Below are positions 5,047-9,793 of a DNA stretch of 61,210 bases, piece after piece. Source of the stretch: Promethearchaeota archaeon (GTDB lineage Archaea > Asgardarchaeota > Lokiarchaeia > Sigyniarchaeales > SOKP01); NCBI GenBank assembly GCA_048938855.1, contig JBHLLT010000017.1, positions 1-61,210 on the forward strand. The letters are read 5' to 3'. Numbering within the stretch: the first letter of the stretch is position 1; each line of letters opens with the position of its first letter. The translations under genes and the position numbers were made by a program. A model generated the notes under the pieces. That model saw nothing but the letters and a program-made list of their open reading frames with translations, ran no database searches and had not been told where the DNA came from.

Positions 5047-5829
5047 ATGCCAATTGTAGGAATTGATGCTAAGAAATGTAATTTCTGTAAAGCCTGTGTT
5101 AAAGAATGCCCATTAGATAATTTTAGTGCTCTTAAAGAAGAAAGACAAATTACTTTTAATTCATCGAAAGATTGTATTTTATGTGGACATTGTATTGTTG
5201 TATGTCCAAAAAAAGCAATTATATATAAAGATATGAATGAGAATGTTATTGACTTTGAAGCGAAAATTCCTTCCATCTCAACACTAGCGCTGAATAAATT
5301 AATGCTTTCAAAAAGATCAGTTAGACAATATAAAAATAAAAATGTACCAAAAGAAATAATTGAAAAAATCATAAAATCTATGAGTATCGCTCCAGTAGCT
5401 ATGAATAAACGTTCTTTAAAATGTATAGTTATTTCAGGTAATAAAAAAATCAATACATTGATTGATTCAATTATAGATTCAATTGAAGAAGTAGAAGACC
5501 GAGAAGAATATAAAGTAAAGAGAGAAAAGGGATTTGATCCTTTCTTTTTTAAAGCCCCCCATATTCTAATACTCCACTCAAATAATCATTGGGATACTAT
5601 AAATGGGACTATCGCAATTACATATGGCATGTTATATGCTGAAACTCTAGGTATAGGGTCTTGCTGGATTGGGGGTATTCAGATGTTTCTTAATGAAAAA
5701 AAAGAAATAAAAGAAAAATTGTTAGGTATCAAGGACAAAATTTGCGGTTTTATGATTTTTGGGTACCCTTCAGTGAAGTATTACAGAGCTCCCCCACGTC
5801 CTCCACTAGCAACTACCTTTGTCACTTGA
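5047..5829 (+). CDS. Nitroreductase family protein with N-terminal 2x[4Fe-4S] ferredoxin domain
   Basis: CNFCKACVKECP and CILCGHCIVVCP; KRSVRQY; LGIGSCWIG; FGYP. Confidence 0.92.
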   Translation: MPIVGIDAKKCNFCKACVKECPLDNFSALKEERQITFNSSKDCILCGHCIVVCPKKAIIYKDMNENVIDFEAKIPSISTLALNKLMLSKRSVRQYKNKNVPKEIIEKIIKSMSIAPVAMNKRSLKCIVISGNKKINTLIDSIIDSIEEVEDREEYKVKREKGFDPFFFKAPHILILHSNNHWDTINGTIAITYGMLYAETLGIGSCWIGGIQMFLNEKKEIKEKLLGIKDKICGFMIFGYPSVKYYRAPPRPPLATTFVT

Positions 5830-6005: not shown

Positions 6006-6806
6006 ATGGGTTATAAAAAGAAATTACATAATATTAAAGGGATTTTAACAGATATCGATGGTACTCTTTATTTTAAAGGAAAAATAATTCCTAATTCTGT
6101 TGAAACTATATCTAAACTTCGAGAAGCAGGTATTAAACTTCTTTTTCTTACAAATACAGATAGTAAATCTCCATATACAGTAATAAAAACGTTGGAAGAA
6201 TATGGATTTACTATAAACAAAGATGAAATCTTCACTCCTATTATTGCTGTGAGAGAATTTCTAAATAAACACCCGAATAAGACGTCTTATTTTGTTACTA
6301 CAAAAGAAGTTGCAGAAGAACTACGAGAATTTCAGCAAGTAAAAAATTTTGCAATACCCGATTTTGTAATAATAGGAGATTTTCATGATGATTGGAATAT
6401 TAACCGTTTAAATTTAGCATTCAAATATGTTCTTAAAGGAGCGACGTTACTTGGAACTCAAGGAAATATTTATTATCTTGACCGAAGTGGAGAACCAGTA
6501 ATAGATACCGGCTCATTTGTAAATATGATTGCCAATGCTGCTAATGTCACTCCAATAATATTGGGAAAACCTTCAAGAGAATTTTTTCAACAAGCTTTAG
6601 AAAAATTAAGCCTTAATGCAAATGAGGTTCTAGTTATAGGCGATGATCTGGAATCTGATATTCAAGGAGCCATTAATGCAGGAATTAGGGGAATTCTGGT
6701 TAAAACAGGGAAAGGACAATTTGTAAATTCAACAAATTTAGGGTATAAACCACATTTAATTCTTGATTCATTTAGTTCATTGAAAGAAGTTGTTAAATTA
6801 AGATGA
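6006..6806 (+). CDS. HAD superfamily subfamily IIA hydrolase (NagD/LHPP/HDHD2-like)
   Basis: DIDGTL, LTNT, GKP, IGDDLESDIQGA, GILVKTGK motifs. Confidence 0.9.
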   Translation: MGYKKKLHNIKGILTDIDGTLYFKGKIIPNSVETISKLREAGIKLLFLTNTDSKSPYTVIKTLEEYGFTINKDEIFTPIIAVREFLNKHPNKTSYFVTTKEVAEELREFQQVKNFAIPDFVIIGDFHDDWNINRLNLAFKYVLKGATLLGTQGNIYYLDRSGEPVIDTGSFVNMIANAANVTPIILGKPSREFFQQALEKLSLNANEVLVIGDDLESDIQGAINAGIRGILVKTGKGQFVNSTNLGYKPHLILDSFSSLKEVVKLR

Positions 6807-7017: not shown

Positions 7018-8019
7018 ATGGCATTAAAAGAATATTTCGTGAAAGATCTAATAATTGACGACGAATATGGAATTATTGATTCAAATGCAACTATTCAAGA
7101 CGCAGCGCAAAAAATGAAAGAATTAGGTGTCCCTGATTTAGTCGTTGTTGGGGGAGAAAAACAAGAAGTTCTAGGTGTAATTGCAGATTTTGATATTGTA
7201 CAAAATATAGTCGCAGAAGGAAAAGATGTCAAAACTGAAAAAGTTATTTCTGCAATGTATAGAATACAACCTGTTAATTTAGATACAACTGTTTCAGAAG
7301 CATTCAAGAGAATGCAAGATCTCAACGTAAATGTAGTTCCTGTAATAGATAACAACAAGCTTTTAGGAGTCTGCTCCATTCATGACTGCTGGAGTTTTAT
7401 ACCAGATCAAACTGTTGATGAGATTGGGCTGATACCTGTTAGAAATGCAAAAGTAGCTGAATTTTGGTTTGCTAGTTTTTGTGCAATAGTAGCCTTTACT
7501 TTTGGGGTGCTTTTACCTCTCTCTGGAATCTTTGGTTTTTTTACAGGCTATTACAGTGATCTTATGAGCTTACTTGGAATGGGACCAATAGTTGGAGATC
7601 CTATATTGCATTTTACTTTATTTGATGTAAGAGGTACTGGAGTTATGCAACCTTTCCTGAATTTGAATGATCCAATTTGGATCACTATAGATGTATTTAG
7701 TGTTTTTCTATTAATTTCAGGGATAATAGCACTATTTTCGATAATCTATACAAGTTTTTCAGATACAAGAAAGTTGCAAACAAGTTGGATTTTGAAAACA
7801 GTAGTACCCGGATTAGCTGTTTTTTTTATGGCTTTTGAATGGATTTTATTTGGTATTGCATTTGCACTTGAAACACCCCAACCTCTTATTTCTATAGATC
7901 CCATCGGATTAACCTTGTCTATTATATCAATGGTATTATTACTTTTAGCGGTTTGTAGAGATTATGTATTCCGAGGAATTGAAGTGTCTGAAGTTAAAGA
8001 CAGTGAGGTGTCAAAATAA
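7018..8019 (+). CDS. CBS-pair domain protein with about four C-terminal TM helices
   Basis: Two CBS motifs (ATIQDAAQKM...LGVIADFDIV; TVSEAFKRM...VPVID..KLLGVCS) followed by hydrophobic segments. Confidence 0.85.
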   Translation: MALKEYFVKDLIIDDEYGIIDSNATIQDAAQKMKELGVPDLVVVGGEKQEVLGVIADFDIVQNIVAEGKDVKTEKVISAMYRIQPVNLDTTVSEAFKRMQDLNVNVVPVIDNNKLLGVCSIHDCWSFIPDQTVDEIGLIPVRNAKVAEFWFASFCAIVAFTFGVLLPLSGIFGFFTGYYSDLMSLLGMGPIVGDPILHFTLFDVRGTGVMQPFLNLNDPIWITIDVFSVFLLISGIIALFSIIYTSFSDTRKLQTSWILKTVVPGLAVFFMAFEWILFGIAFALETPQPLISIDPIGLTLSIISMVLLLLAVCRDYVFRGIEVSEVKDSEVSK

Positions 8020-8022
8020 AAA

Positions 8023-9531
8023 ATGCCTCGTGGTGGTGGTGGGGGATTTCGTGGTGGTGGAGGATTTCGTGGTGGTGGTTTTGGTGGAGGATTTCGTGGT
8101 GGCGGATTTCGAGGTGGTGGTTTTGGTGGAGGATTTAGAGCCCCTTATAGTGGAGGCGGAAGGCCATTTGGAAGAACTGGAGCTAATCGCGTAGTATCAA
8201 GATCTCCCAGGGGCCCTTATACACATAGATATTATCGCCCATCTCGTATGTATTACAGACCCTCTTGGTGGTATCATCGCCCTTGGTATTGGAGGTGGTG
8301 GTATTCGCCTTGGTGGGCGGGTTATTATTATCGCCCTTGGTATTATAGCCCTGTTTATGTAGGTGGGGGGATATTATCTGTAATTATCCTTTTCTTAATA
8401 ATTCTACCTGTTGCTGGAGTAGCACTATGGTTTCCATTTACTAGTGCAGACGCAAATGGTACTGTTAATTATCGTTCTACTGAAACTTTATACTTTAATG
8501 AGTTCTGGTATGAATATGAATACATAGAAAATGGACAGGATATAACATTTTCAGTACAATCAACACCTAGTACTATTACATTTGCTCTTTGGAATCAGCC
8601 ATTTGAGAATCTGCCTACAACTACCAAATATGTTGATGTTGTTAATTCAGTAGCTATTAATCCCATATCCTATGACACTTGGACAGAGTGGTTATTTCTA
8701 AGAGCTGGTTCTTCACTTATCTACGATTATAATTCGAGTGCAAACCTAGATTTCTTTATTGCGGATGCTTGGGATTTCTATAATTGGAATCAAGGAGGTT
8801 CTCCATCATTTCCAGTAAGTGTGTTGAATAATGATCAAGGAAATGGTTTCTATAATGTTCCTACAACTCAAGATTATTATCTTGTATGGTATAACGATGG
8901 AGGCTCCACCATTAACGTAGATTATACAATAAATTATACAGCTGTAAATGTGCCTGATTTTAGTCTTACTCCCGAGAATCATGAAAATGTTGATTTTGTT
9001 GCAACAGATACTTTCACAGCGACCTCATCAGGAAATTGGTATTTCTTTATATATTTTGATCCTATGAATTCTCCTGAGGAATCAACAACAATTACTTTTG
9101 ACGTTACTTACGATACAGGTGTAACTTACCAAGAGAGATGGTTTGATGTTCAATGGATATTAATTATAGTTCTTGTTGTTGTTGTACTTTTATTGATAGC
9201 CGCTGTTGTAGCAAGAAGAGGTCAAAAAAAATTGAAATTGAAAGCACCAACAACCACAGATCAAGCAAAAAAATCACCATATAAAATTACTCCTGCAGAA
9301 ACAGAGAAAGAAACGGTCAAGAAGGAAGAAATAAAATGTACTCGTTGCGGCGCTTCAATAAAACCAGATTCAAAATTCTGTCCTAAATGTGGAGGAAAAA
9401 TAGAAGGAAGACAAGTTAATGTTCCTTCAATAACTACGCCAGCTACGGCAAAAACATGTTCTTTATGTGGAAGTAAACTTACTGGAACAGAAAAATTCTG
9501 TAAATGGTGCGGTACAAAAATAGAACAATAA
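8023..9531 (+). CDS. Two-pass membrane protein: RGG/FG low-complexity and R/Y/W-rich N-terminus, external beta-rich domain, two C-terminal double zinc ribbons
   Basis: MPRGGGGGFRGGGGFRGGGFGGGFRGGG...; TM ILSVIILFLIILPVAGVALW; TM WILIIVLVVVVLLLIAAVVA; CTRC..CPKC and CSLC..CKWC. Confidence 0.85.
   Translation: MPRGGGGGFRGGGGFRGGGFGGGFRGGGFRGGGFGGGFRAPYSGGGRPFGRTGANRVVSRSPRGPYTHRYYRPSRMYYRPSWWYHRPWYWRWWYSPWWAGYYYRPWYYSPVYVGGGILSVIILFLIILPVAGVALWFPFTSADANGTVNYRSTETLYFNEFWYEYEYIENGQDITFSVQSTPSTITFALWNQPFENLPTTTKYVDVVNSVAINPISYDTWTEWLFLRAGSSLIYDYNSSANLDFFIADAWDFYNWNQGGSPSFPVSVLNNDQGNGFYNVPTTQDYYLVWYNDGGSTINVDYTINYTAVNVPDFSLTPENHENVDFVATDTFTATSSGNWYFFIYFDPMNSPEESTTITFDVTYDTGVTYQERWFDVQWILIIVLVVVVLLLIAAVVARRGQKKLKLKAPTTTDQAKKSPYKITPAETEKETVKKEEIKCTRCGASIKPDSKFCPKCGGKIEGRQVNVPSITTPATAKTCSLCGSKLTGTEKFCKWCGTKIEQ
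8029..8140 (+). repeat. Coding microrepeat (ggt)n-gga-ttt-cgt encoding GGGFR units
   Basis: Repeated ggatttcgtggtggtgg units are visible at 8029-8140. Confidence 0.9.
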
Positions 9532-9583: not shown

Positions 9584-9793
9584 TTATTCAATTTCTTGAG
9601 GAGCAATATTTTCTTCGTCATGATTCTTAACAGAACTATAACTACCCTTTACTTCATTAATATCAACAGTTACGACTGTATGTCCTAAATGTTCCTTTTC
9701 AAACCTTTTTATTTCTGCTTGATTAACGGGATTACTAGGATGAATTACCATATAAGATCGACACTTTATACACGCACGACATCGGACACTCAT
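9584..9793 (-). CDS. Small putative zinc-binding protein (CxxC...HxxH)
   Basis: RCRACIKC and EHLGH motifs; 69 aa; own AT-rich upstream region. Confidence 0.7.
   Translation of the reverse strand: MSVRCRACIKCRSYMVIHPSNPVNQAEIKRFEKEHLGHTVVTVDINEVKGSYSSVKNHDEENIAPQEIE

What the first reader, a model, noticed from the sequence alone, without database searches (positions are those of the whole stretch)
8023..9531. Membrane protein carrying an RGG/FG low-complexity domain, an aromatic sticker tract and two double zinc ribbons
Seen in sequence: ~50 aa of GGGFR/GGGF repeats, then an R/Y/W/P-rich tract (YYRPSWWYHRPWYWRWWYSPWWAGYYYRPWYY), a TM helix, a ~240-aa beta-rich external domain with N-x-S/T sequons, a second TM helix and two CxxC...CxxC ribbons. 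Both termini should face the cytoplasm. Established knowledge: RGGF repeats resemble the GAR domains of eukaryotic fibrillarin, nucleolin and GAR1, which bind RNA, are Arg-methylated and drive phase separation; archaeal fibrillarins generally lack them. Inference: a receptor-like protein that tethers RNA or nucleates a condensate at the membrane in an Asgard archaeon.
Basis: partly seen in the sequence, partly recalled or inferred. Interest (0 to 1): 0.75.

Follow-up and report, generated by a model that had tools for sequence, protein, structure and literature searches.

The report
Asgard membrane protein with RGG tail
This is a real, uncharacterised Asgard-archaeal membrane protein whose cytoplasmic arginine-glycine and aromatic-rich tail, of a kind otherwise typical of eukaryotic RNA-binding proteins, is conserved better than its folded domains, and the gene always sits directly behind a CBS-sensor membrane gene.

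Summary
ORF 8023..9531 encodes 502 aa: RGGF repeats, a conserved motif linker, an R/Y/W/P tract, TM1, an acidic all-beta external domain, TM2 and a Pfam double zinc ribbon.

The tail is not drifting low-complexity sequence. In 52 full-length homologues it is 70-74% identical, against 57% for the folded domain. It has 16-23 Arg and no Lys, Asp or Glu. It is the only such tract in the 3.95-Mb genome.

"Tail-less" homologues are gene-calling errors.

The family is confined to the window's own order, which holds Promethearchaeum syntrophicum MK-D1 and Lokiarchaeum ossiferum, plus one family carrying a genome deposited as Heimdallarchaeota.

The gene is always translationally coupled to an upstream gene for a strongly acidic CBS pair on four TM helices.

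The external domain is GOLD-like (Z 13). By Pfam and by predicted structure it resembles eukaryotic APD1-4 transmembrane RING ligases. The orthologues of the Heimdallarchaeota-labelled family add a RING-like finger.

RNA tethering or condensate formation fits the sequence grammar but is untested. No PRMT-type domain was found. My preferred model is a CBS-regulated scaffold whose cationic tail sits at the membrane interface. No literature on the family was found.

The parts
8023..9531 (+). Whole gene: 502-aa 2-TM protein (N-in/C-in), single copy in the genome
8029..8139 (+). RGGF/GGGF repeat tract (aa 3-39), predicted disordered
   Evidence: pLDDT 30-35; tandem DNA repeat. 3-8 RGG per homologue
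8140..8232 (+). Conserved linker (aa 40-70) with near-invariant RPFGRTGA.R..SRSP.GPY.H motif
   Evidence: invariant P48 F49 G50 R51 T52 G53 R56 R60 P62 G64 P65 Y66 H68. 71% mean pairwise identity
8233..8358 (+). Arg/Tyr/Trp/Pro tract (aa 71-112) next to TM1. No Lys, Asp or Glu
   Evidence: 74% identity; lowest Wimley-White interfacial energy, -19.3 kcal/mol per 30 aa, of 3111 ORFs in the genome
8359..8433 (+). TM helix 1 (aa 113-137)
8434..9126 (+). External acidic all-beta domain (aa 138-368), pLDDT >90
   Evidence: Atlas structural match to APD1-4 clusters, TM 0.54-0.56 over aa 154-357
8620..8955 (+). GOLD-like jelly roll (aa 200-311). Holds the stretch (aa ~200-245) that corresponds to the Pfam APD1-4_N match in homologues
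   Evidence: p24 GOLD domains, Z 13.0/12.9/12.6. (PF16040)
9139..9213 (+). TM helix 2 (aa 373-397), followed by basic RRGQKKLKLK
9337..9390 (+). Zinc ribbon 1 (C439, C442, C453, C456)
   Evidence: DZR PF12773 E 7.7e-12. All eight Cys invariant
9457..9510 (+). Zinc ribbon 2 (C479, C482, C493, C496)
7018..8019 (+). Partner gene: acidic CBS pair (aa 1-137) plus 4-TM domain (aa 138-333). Always immediately upstream on the same strand
8005..8010 (+). Shine-Dalgarno-like GAGGTG inside the 3' end of the partner gene. Partner stop TAA at 8017-8019, start ATG at 8023
   Evidence: Conserved in 37 distinct loci of both clades

Best explanation
The gene is the second half of a conserved two-gene membrane module. 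The module occurs in the window's own order (Lokiarchaeales/Promethearchaeales) and in one family carrying a genome deposited as Heimdallarchaeota.

Shown:
- The protein spans the membrane twice.
- An acidic beta-sandwich of GOLD/APD type lies between the two TM helices.
- A 112-residue tail lies before TM1. It is predicted to be disordered, is strictly Arg-based and is rich in Gly and aromatic residues.
- A double zinc ribbon follows TM2.
- The gene is translationally coupled to, and co-inherited with, a gene for a strongly acidic CBS pair fused to four TM helices.

Inferred from the positive-inside rule: the tail and the zinc ribbon face the cytoplasm, and the beta-sandwich faces outside.

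Inferred mechanism:
1. The two proteins form one membrane complex.
2. The Trp/Tyr/Arg tract lies in the inner-leaflet interface next to TM1.
3. The RGGF repeats project from it as a multivalent cationic element. It self-associates through Arg-aromatic contacts and binds polyanions, with RNA the likeliest candidate.
4. The acidic, adenosine-ligand-type CBS pair of the partner masks or releases the tail according to the cell's nucleotide or ionic state.
5. The external domain reports or makes contacts outside the cell.

In short, it is a regulated, membrane-anchored clustering and tethering scaffold. It is neither an enzyme nor a transporter.
For: - Architecture and topology.
- The tail is under stronger constraint than the folded domain (70-74% against 57% identity). 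It has 0 Lys, 0 Asp/Glu and 16-23 Arg in 52 homologues. It is retained in orthologues only 38-48% identical in the external domain.
- More distant relatives lose the motifs but keep the G/R/Y/W composition (P0146, P0128).
- The tract is unique in the genome.
- The aromatic tract is the most interface-seeking non-TM window in the genome.
- The partner has the same phyletic pattern: 126 against 129 of 400 genomes, in the same families.
- The partner is adjacent in every locus examined. A conserved SD lies inside the partner's 3' end in 37 loci.
- The partner's CBS pair has net charge -7 to -14, against a genome mean of -0.2 and 5th percentile of -7.
- The CBS fold is confirmed.
- Established knowledge: RGG/GAR tracts bind RNA, and Arg plus Tyr/Phe act as stickers in phase separation. 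CBS pairs bind adenosine ligands or sense ionic strength.
Against: - No experiment or computation here shows RNA binding, self-association, or contact between the two proteins. No multimer prediction was possible.
- No PRMT-type domain was found, so the eukaryotic methylation layer is probably absent.
- Near-invariant motifs such as RPFGRTG suggest a specific folded partner rather than generic polyanion binding.
- The tail's strong membrane-interface propensity could mean that most of it is lipid-bound and unavailable for RNA.
- Several complete genomes of the same family lack both genes (g6 0/4, g11 0/10), so the module is dispensable.
Confidence: 0.35

Rival explanations
1. The tail is mainly membrane-active. 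The Trp/Tyr/Arg tract, and perhaps the RGGF repeats, embed in or coat the cytoplasmic leaflet, much as Trp/Arg-rich peptides such as indolicidin or tritrpticin do. There they cluster anionic lipids or bend the membrane, for example in the protrusions of Lokiarchaeia. RNA plays no part.
For: -: -19.3 kcal/mol interfacial energy per 30 aa, the best of 3111 ORFs.
- The tract abuts TM1.
- Charges are Arg-only, with no Lys, Asp or Glu.
- Orthologues occur in MK-D1 and L. ossiferum.
Against: - This does not explain the near-invariant non-aromatic motif RPFGRTGA..SRSP.GPY.
- It does not explain the Gly-rich RGGF repeats, which have little interfacial propensity.
- It does not explain the acidic CBS partner.
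Confidence: 0.25
2. The pair is a regulated channel or transporter. The CBS+4TM protein is the conducting or regulatory core, as in CBS-gated MgtE or CNNM/CorC. The RGG protein is its auxiliary subunit, and its tail acts as a plug or gate.
For: - Strict operon and co-inheritance.
- CBS pairs commonly gate transporters. MgtE and CorC CBS domains are among the Foldseek matches.
- Opposite charge of the tail and the CBS pair.
Against: - The 4-TM domain matches no transporter fold or family.
- Four helices per chain is a small number for a pore.
- A large conserved external beta domain and a double zinc ribbon are unusual in auxiliary subunits.
Confidence: 0.15
3. It is the archaeal counterpart of eukaryotic APD1-4-type transmembrane RING E3 ligases. 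It works with the Asgard ubiquitin-like system, and the tail recruits substrates or adaptors.
For: - Pfam APD1-4_N (PF16040) matches 19 of 52 homologues, best E 8.2e-7. Three score above the 27-bit cut-off, always at the same place.
- The Atlas structural search gives TM 0.54-0.56 to two APD clusters over aa 154-357.
- Like APD1-4, which are transmembrane RING E3s (PMC13210498), it is a membrane protein ending in a C-terminal zinc finger.
- Orthologues of the Heimdallarchaeota-labelled family add a conserved C/H-C2-C2-C2 finger with sub-threshold RING matches: zf-RING_4 in 10/10 (best 2.2e-5), and RING domains dominate the weak PDB hits.
Against: - The window's own protein has no RING, only a DZR, and does not itself reach E<=1 for PF16040.
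- PF16041 (the APD middle domain) is not detected by sequence.
- The jelly-roll motif also occurs in other archaeal surface proteins (P0252), so the match may reflect a shared module only.
- APDs are not reported to have RGG tails.
Confidence: 0.12
4. It is a structural cell-surface or adhesion protein. The external beta-sandwich is the functional part, and the cytoplasmic tails only fix topology or anchor it to the cytoskeleton.
For: - The external domain is acidic, Cys-free and confidently folded, with a conserved sequon at N237.
- GOLD, PPC and collagen-binding-like folds are typical binding modules.
- The same domain is fused to a beta-propeller in P0123.
Against: - The tail is more conserved than the external domain, which is the opposite of what a mere anchor would show.
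- The obligatory CBS partner points to cytoplasmic sensing.
Confidence: 0.1

Closest known systems
Eukaryotic GAR/RGG domains (fibrillarin, nucleolin, GAR1, uS5/RPS2, FUS family)
   Same: - Repeated RGGF/FRGGG units in a Gly-rich tract predicted to be disordered.
- Arg is the only charged residue.
- Aromatic stickers lie nearby.
   Different: - The tract is N-terminal on an integral membrane protein of an archaeon.
- It is followed by a Trp-rich juxtamembrane tract.
- No PRMT-type domain was found in the genome.
- The sequence is positionally conserved rather than only compositionally conserved.
- RNA binding is untested.
APD1-4 (ABERRANT POLLEN DEVELOPMENT) transmembrane RING E3 ligases; Pfam PF16040/PF16041 plus zf-C3HC4_3
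   Same: - Homologues match PF16040, some above the cut-off.
- The predicted structure of aa 154-357 resembles APD clusters.
- Both are membrane proteins that end in a C-terminal zinc finger.
   Different: - A double zinc ribbon stands in place of the RING, although the Heimdallarchaeota-labelled orthologues add a RING-like finger.
- PF16041 is not detected by sequence.
- An RGG/aromatic tail is added.
- The gene is an operon partner of a CBS+4TM gene.
- APD substrates and mechanism are themselves unknown (PMC13210498).
p24/TMED GOLD-domain cargo receptors
   Same: The best structural matches of aa 200-311 are p24 beta1, gamma2, gamma1 and delta1 GOLD domains: Z 11.3-13.0, rmsd 1.5-2.2 over 87-102 residues.
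   Different: - No PF01105 sequence match.
- There are two TM helices rather than a signal peptide plus one TM.
- There is no coiled coil and no short COPI/COPII-binding tail.
- GOLD scores stand only 1-2 Z units above other jelly rolls (Ena fibres, PPC, collagen-binding domains).
Membrane-tethered RNA-binding disordered regions (bacterial RNase E Arg-rich C-terminal half, RNase Y; eukaryotic ER proteins p180, AEG-1/MTDH)
   Same: The functional analogy is a basic disordered segment held at the cytoplasmic face of a membrane, which could concentrate RNA there.
   Different: - No sequence relationship and no catalytic domain.
- The comparison rests on my own knowledge only and was not tested here.
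DZR / zinc-ribbon membrane proteins of archaea (Pfam PF12773)
   Same: The C-terminal double zinc ribbon is a clear member (E 7.7e-12). Public records name the protein by this domain only.
   Different: The name covers 60 of 502 residues and says nothing about the tail, the external domain or the partner.

Membership tests
Pfam DZR (PF12773) double zinc ribbon | Two CxxC-x(n)-CxxC ribbons matching the model above the gathering score | tested here: met
   45.6 bits against a cut-off of 27.3, aa 439-497. 52/52 homologues match. Eight Cys are invariant.
GAR/RGG domain | Clustered RGG/RG repeats in a Gly-rich low-complexity region | tested here: met
   aa 3-39. 3-8 RGG per homologue, Gly 23-35 and Arg 16-23 per ~110-aa tail.
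GAR/RGG domain | Arginine methylation by PRMT enzymes | tested here: inconclusive
   No PRMT_C (PF22528) or PRMT5 (PF05185) match in the 97%-complete genome. The PRMT_C control rang in no genome. Other methyltransferase classes were not excluded. Methylation itself is not testable here.
GAR/RGG domain | RNA binding / phase separation | not testable with these tools
   Only the sequence grammar (Arg plus aromatic stickers with Gly/Ser/Pro spacers) is available.
APD1-4 transmembrane RING E3 (PF16040 + PF16041 + RING) | APD1-4_N domain (PF16040) | tested here: inconclusive
   The window protein has no hit at E<=1. 19/52 homologues hit, best 8.2e-7. P0070, P0096 and P0106 score 28.4-29.1 bits against a cut-off of 27, always at aa ~195-240 and profile positions 21-69. 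More distant members score 8e-6 to 0.03.
APD1-4 transmembrane RING E3 (PF16040 + PF16041 + RING) | APD1-4_M domain (PF16041) | tested here: inconclusive
   No sequence match in any member scanned. The Atlas structural alignment to APD clusters does extend over aa 154-357 (TM 0.54-0.56).
APD1-4 transmembrane RING E3 (PF16040 + PF16041 + RING) | C-terminal C3HC4 RING finger | tested here: not met
   The window protein ends in a DZR. zf-C3HC4_3 hits in 18/52 homologues are weak (best 0.0057). Only the Heimdallarchaeota-labelled orthologues have an extra RING-like finger, and it is sub-threshold.
p24/TMED (EMP24_GP25L, PF01105) GOLD proteins | GOLD fold | tested here: met
   Z 13.0 (rmsd 1.5, 87 aligned), 12.9 and 12.6 to p24 GOLD domains for aa ~200-310. 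Foldseek TMt 0.75-0.84.
p24/TMED (EMP24_GP25L, PF01105) GOLD proteins | Sequence membership in PF01105 and type-I topology with a short sorting tail | tested here: not met
   No PF01105 hit. The protein has two TM helices, a long N-terminal cytoplasmic tail and a C-terminal zinc ribbon.
CBS-pair (Bateman) proteins - the partner gene | Two CBS motifs forming a Bateman module | tested here: met
   PF00571 at E 1.3e-14, two stretches. Foldseek to many CBS pairs, E 3e-9, TMt 0.7-0.84.

The most novel reading that the evidence does not exclude
The CBS+4TM / RGG-tail pair is a previously unrecognised Asgard system. A nucleotide- or ionic-state sensor controls a membrane-anchored, eukaryote-style Arg/aromatic sticker domain that assembles an RNA-containing condensate at the inner membrane face. 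Its external and membrane core is the prokaryotic ancestor of the pan-eukaryotic APD family of transmembrane RING ligases. On this reading, GAR-type phase-separating sequence and an endomembrane E3 scaffold both predate eukaryotes.
Probability: 0.12. Interest if true: 0.9.

Novelty: new variant of a known kind. Interest (0 to 1): 0.7.

Why it matters
- RGG/GAR tracts and Arg-aromatic sticker grammar are regarded as hallmarks of eukaryotic RNA biology and condensates. Here such a tract is fixed in Asgard archaea and conserved more tightly than the folded parts of the protein. It sits on a membrane protein, so it is under strong, specific selection.
- Orthologues exist in Promethearchaeum syntrophicum MK-D1 (QEE15546.1) and Lokiarchaeum ossiferum (UYP45408.1). 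Localisation, proteomics and biochemistry are therefore feasible.
- The sequence and structure link to APD1-4 is possible but not proven. These are orphan transmembrane RING ligases whose domain combination a wheat RING survey lists from plants, animals, Dictyostelium and Leishmania (PMC8169666). If the link holds, it would add a membrane-trafficking-related candidate to the list of Asgard-eukaryote shared proteins, and it would give APD research a simpler prokaryotic model.
- A practical point: public gene calls often truncate this gene, which hides the tail from database surveys.

Tried and rejected
- **Natural tail-less isoforms: rejected.** The 365-398-aa database forms start inside or just before TM1. 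In L009 the true ATG lies in frame 342 nt upstream, and the caller took a wrong-frame ORF over the GGN repeats.
- **RGG tract as a general feature of this proteome: rejected.** It is the only such ORF in six-frame scans. The GRGWG protein on contig C66 is an unrelated small coiled-coil protein.
- **Secreted or external tail: rejected.** The evidence is the positive-inside rule, the absence of an N-terminal hydrophobic signal, and Cys4 zinc ribbons on the same side.
- **Membership in the p24/EMP24 family: rejected.** The fold matches but the sequence and topology do not.
- **Fusion of the partner with this protein (Rosetta stone): not found.** None appeared among 45 cluster representatives of all lengths. 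The fusions seen were a TPR domain (P0125) and a beta-propeller (P0123).
- **Profile-profile test against APD: could not be run.** No eukaryotic APD sequence could be obtained.
- **Function of the partner's TM domain: not identified.** Pfam, Foldseek and the Atlas gave nothing beyond the CBS pair.
- **Literature: nothing found on this family.** Searches covered Asgard+RGG, Asgard+GOLD, the six accessions, PF16040/DUF4792, and the MK-D1 paper's supplements.
- **PRMT search: negative, with a caveat.** The PRMT_C control rang in no control genome.
Full report
**1. The observation**

ORF 8023..9531 (+) encodes 502 aa. From the N-terminus it reads as follows.

- MPR, then RGGF/GGGF repeats to aa 39.
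- A linker carrying RPFGRTGA.R..SRSP.GPY.H (aa 40-70).
- An Arg/Tyr/Trp/Pro tract (aa 71-112).
- A TM helix (about 113-137).
- A 231-aa domain.
- A second TM helix (about 373-397) followed by RRGQKKLKLK.
- A variable linker.
- Two CxxC...CxxC ribbons.

Hydropathy and AlphaFold2 built on 52 homologues agree. Residues 1-111 have pLDDT 30-42 (predicted disordered). Helices run 110-136 and 369-404. Residues 140-365 are all-beta with pLDDT above 90.

Pfam recognises only the C-terminal double zinc ribbon (PF12773, E 7.7e-12). The middle domain has 29 Asp/Glu, 3 Lys/Arg and no Cys. It has three sequons, of which only N237 is widely conserved.

The tail carries about 18 Arg and a basic patch follows TM2. 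The DNA of the repeat tract is a tandem array (TRF period 42, score 154).

**2. The tail is real and strongly selected**

A search with the non-repetitive part (aa 115-430) found 262 relatives. The best 120 have E below 1e-98 and carry Asgard labels.

Every full-length relative starts MPRGGG and keeps the repeats, the RPFGRTG motif and the RPWYYSPVYVGGG end of the aromatic tract. The 365-398-aa forms, mostly JGI calls, begin at or inside TM1. In locus L009 the real ATG lies in frame at 5659, while the gene caller placed a wrong-frame ORF over the GGN repeats. They are annotation errors, not tail-less variants.

| Segment (52 homologues) | Mean pairwise identity |
|---|---|
| RGG tract | 0.70 |
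| Motif linker | 0.71 |
| Aromatic tract | 0.74 |
| External domain | 0.57 |
| Linker before the zinc ribbon | 0.37 |

The tail of 101-122 residues never contains Lys, Asp or Glu, and it always has 16-23 Arg.

Orthologues whose external domain is only 38-48% identical keep the same tail. In L. ossiferum and Harpocratesius some Gly are replaced by Ser (FRSSSF). More distant relatives (P0146, P0128) lose the motifs but keep a G/Y/W/R composition.

In the 3.95-Mb genome this is the only ORF with such an RGG window or such a W/Y/R window. The genome's fibrillarin sits in a 235-aa frame with no room for a GAR domain.

**3. Distribution**

Of 400 genomes of the phylum, 129 have a match:

- family f1, the window's own: 94/134;
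- f2: 1/1;
- f3: 10/14;
- f16: 19/22;
- one probable binning stray (G041, in f13);
- three weak partial hits elsewhere.

About 26 other families have none with this query. Some complete genomes within f1 lack it (g6 0/4, g11 0/10), so it is dispensable.

Exact look-ups identify orthologues in named genomes:

- f3: Promethearchaeum syntrophicum MK-D1 (QEE15546.1), Lokiarchaeum ossiferum (UYP45408.1) and Harpocratesius repetitus (MCF2141188.1);
- f16: a closed 4.94-Mb genome deposited as Heimdallarchaeota (UCG01445.1).

All are annotated only as zinc-ribbon or hypothetical proteins. An exhaustive single-sequence search of 1.8 billion cluster representatives gave only 45 related clusters. The family is narrow.

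**4. An obligatory partner**

The gene upstream (7018..8019) encodes a CBS pair plus a membrane domain. AlphaFold2 gives a Bateman module and four TM helices with a small external beta loop. Foldseek matches only CBS pairs.

Its membrane half shows the same phyletic pattern as the RGG protein: 126/400 genomes, with f1 93/134, f2 1/1, f3 11/14, f16 19/22 and the same stray. The coordinates place it directly upstream on the same strand, including in the closed genomes G135, G138, G143 and G067. The few mismatches lie at contig ends.

In 37 distinct loci of both clades a GAGGTG or GGAGG lies 10-14 nt before the start codon, inside the 3' end of the partner gene. The partner's stop lies 2-7 nt before the start. 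In the window these are GAGGTG 8005-8010, TAA 8017-8019 and ATG 8023.

The partner's CBS pair has net charge -7 to -14 in 18 orthologues. The genome background has a mean of -0.2 and a 5th percentile of -7. This is the opposite of the +16 to +23 tail.

**5. The external domain**

VIA-align ranks p24 GOLD domains first for aa about 200-311: Z 13.0 (rmsd 1.5, 87 aligned), 12.9, 12.6 and 11.3, plus the GOLD domain of SPF at 11.8. Other jelly rolls (Ena fibres, PPC and collagen-binding domains) follow at Z 9-10.6. Foldseek agrees. There is no PF01105 sequence match, so this is a fold resemblance only.

A closer lead is the APD1-4 family.

- The ESM Atlas structural search gives, after the protein's own cluster, two eukaryotic clusters of APD1-4 RING proteins (TM 0.54-0.56, 171-173 residues aligned over aa 154-357).
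- Pfam APD1-4_N (PF16040) matches 19 of 52 homologues, with best E 8.2e-7. Three score above the 27-bit cut-off. The match is always at the same place (aa ~195-240, profile 21-69). More distant members also match.
- The window's own protein does not reach E<=1, and PF16041 is not detected.

APD1-4 are transmembrane RING E3s with unknown substrates (PMC13210498). A survey of wheat RING proteins lists the DUF4792+DUF4793+RING combination from plants, animals, Dictyostelium and Leishmania (PMC8169666).

The ten f16 (Heimdallarchaeota-labelled) orthologues extracted all carry an extra conserved C-terminal finger (C-x6-H, then three CxxC). It gives sub-threshold RING matches: zf-RING_4 and zf-UDP in 10/10, best about 2e-5. 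RING domains dominate the weak PDB hits.

I could not obtain eukaryotic APD sequences for a profile-profile test. The same DFFI...W...WY.V.YN jelly roll also occurs twice in an unrelated Asgard membrane protein (P0252). Homology to APD is therefore plausible but unproven.

**6. How it probably works**

Shown:
- the architecture;
- the strong constraint on an Arg-only, Gly/aromatic tail;
- the operon with an acidic CBS+4TM protein.

The N-in/C-in orientation is inferred from the positive-inside rule.

The aromatic tract has the lowest Wimley-White interfacial free energy of any non-TM 30-residue window among 3111 ORFs of the genome, at -19.3 kcal/mol.

Inferred:
- the two proteins form one complex;
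- the aromatic tract lies in the inner-leaflet interface;
- the RGGF repeats act as a multivalent cationic, self-associating and polyanion-binding element, with RNA the likeliest ligand;
- the acidic CBS pair, which in other proteins binds adenosine ligands or senses ionic strength, masks or releases the tail;
- the external GOLD/APD-like domain provides contact or sensing outside the cell.

I give this 0.35. The rivals are:
- a purely membrane-active tail (0.25);
- a CBS-gated channel with this protein as an auxiliary subunit (0.15);
- an APD-like ubiquitin-system component (0.12);
- a structural surface protein (0.10).

It has no direct support, and no PRMT-type domain was found (the PRMT_C control was uninformative).

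**7. Novelty and verdict**

Full-text searches found nothing on this family.

- It is a clear member of the DZR zinc-ribbon class.
- It carries a GAR-like tract by sequence definition.
- It has a GOLD-like fold.
- It is not a member of p24. It cannot yet be filed under APD, because the RING is absent, the M domain is undetected and the N domain is borderline.

I rate it a new variant of known kinds with an unknown function. It is of high interest because the eukaryote-style tail is so tightly conserved, the module is sharply defined, and orthologues exist in MK-D1 and L. ossiferum.

Limits: the look-up of encoding contigs closed. No multimer prediction was possible. Only two structure predictions were allowed.

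Noticed in passing
window 7964..8194 (+): A 76-aa ORF in another frame over the GGN repeats (reads VVVVGDFVVVEDF...). It is an artefact of the repeat. In JGI records gene callers chose this kind of wrong-frame ORF and truncated the real gene at an internal Met (L009 5669-6022).
   Followed up: yes
window 9584..9793 (-): A 69-aa ORF with CRACIKC and HLGH motifs, convergent with the RGG gene. A 68-69-aa gene sits at the same place in L007, L008, L009 and L010, but not in L011 or L012. It has no Pfam match, and its function is unknown.
   Followed up: partly
L027:3836-4066 and nine other f16 loci (L030, L033, L040-L046): The orthologues of the Heimdallarchaeota-labelled family f16 carry an extra conserved C-terminal zinc finger (YFPDER..F.CQLD...HPSTD.AY.C.QCSR..C..C...I..T.....CPYCKG.L). 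It gives sub-threshold matches to RING families (zf-RING_4, zf-UDP, zf-RING_2).
   Followed up: partly
L029:1306-2715 (genome G328, another Asgard family): A 469-aa membrane protein with two tandem copies of the same DFFI...W...WYLV.YN jelly roll, one TM helix, a cytoplasmic winged-helix-like segment and a terminal zinc ribbon. This suggests a wider class of Asgard proteins built as jelly roll outside, zinc ribbon inside.
   Followed up: no
own genome contig C66, minus strand, ORF starting near 74436 of the reverse complement: A 131-aa ORF beginning MPGGDRTGPRGLG and containing GFGRGWGRGWGVGYGRGRGWGY, followed by a coiled-coil-like C-terminus. It is the only other RG/aromatic-rich ORF in the genome. 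From memory it resembles the DUF5320 family, but this was not tested.
   Followed up: no
window 6006..6806 (+) and loci L007, L009, L011, L012: A HAD-family hydrolase (PF13344/PF13242) stays close to the CBS/RGG pair, upstream in the window's relatives and downstream in L011 and L012. Other neighbours change (the purL/purQ/purS cluster against PPDK).
   Followed up: partly
P0123 and P0125: The external domain also occurs fused to a WD40/PQQ-like beta-propeller (P0123, no tail and no zinc ribbon). In P0125 it lies behind a long TPR region that keeps only the aromatic tract. These are rare domain-shuffled relatives.
   Followed up: partly
genome G041 contig C264 (L023): This is the only match in family f13 (1/31). 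It is 65% identical to the window protein and lies on a 3.1-kb contig, with the partner gene present too. The likely cause is a binning stray from an f1 organism rather than a true f13 occurrence.
   Followed up: no
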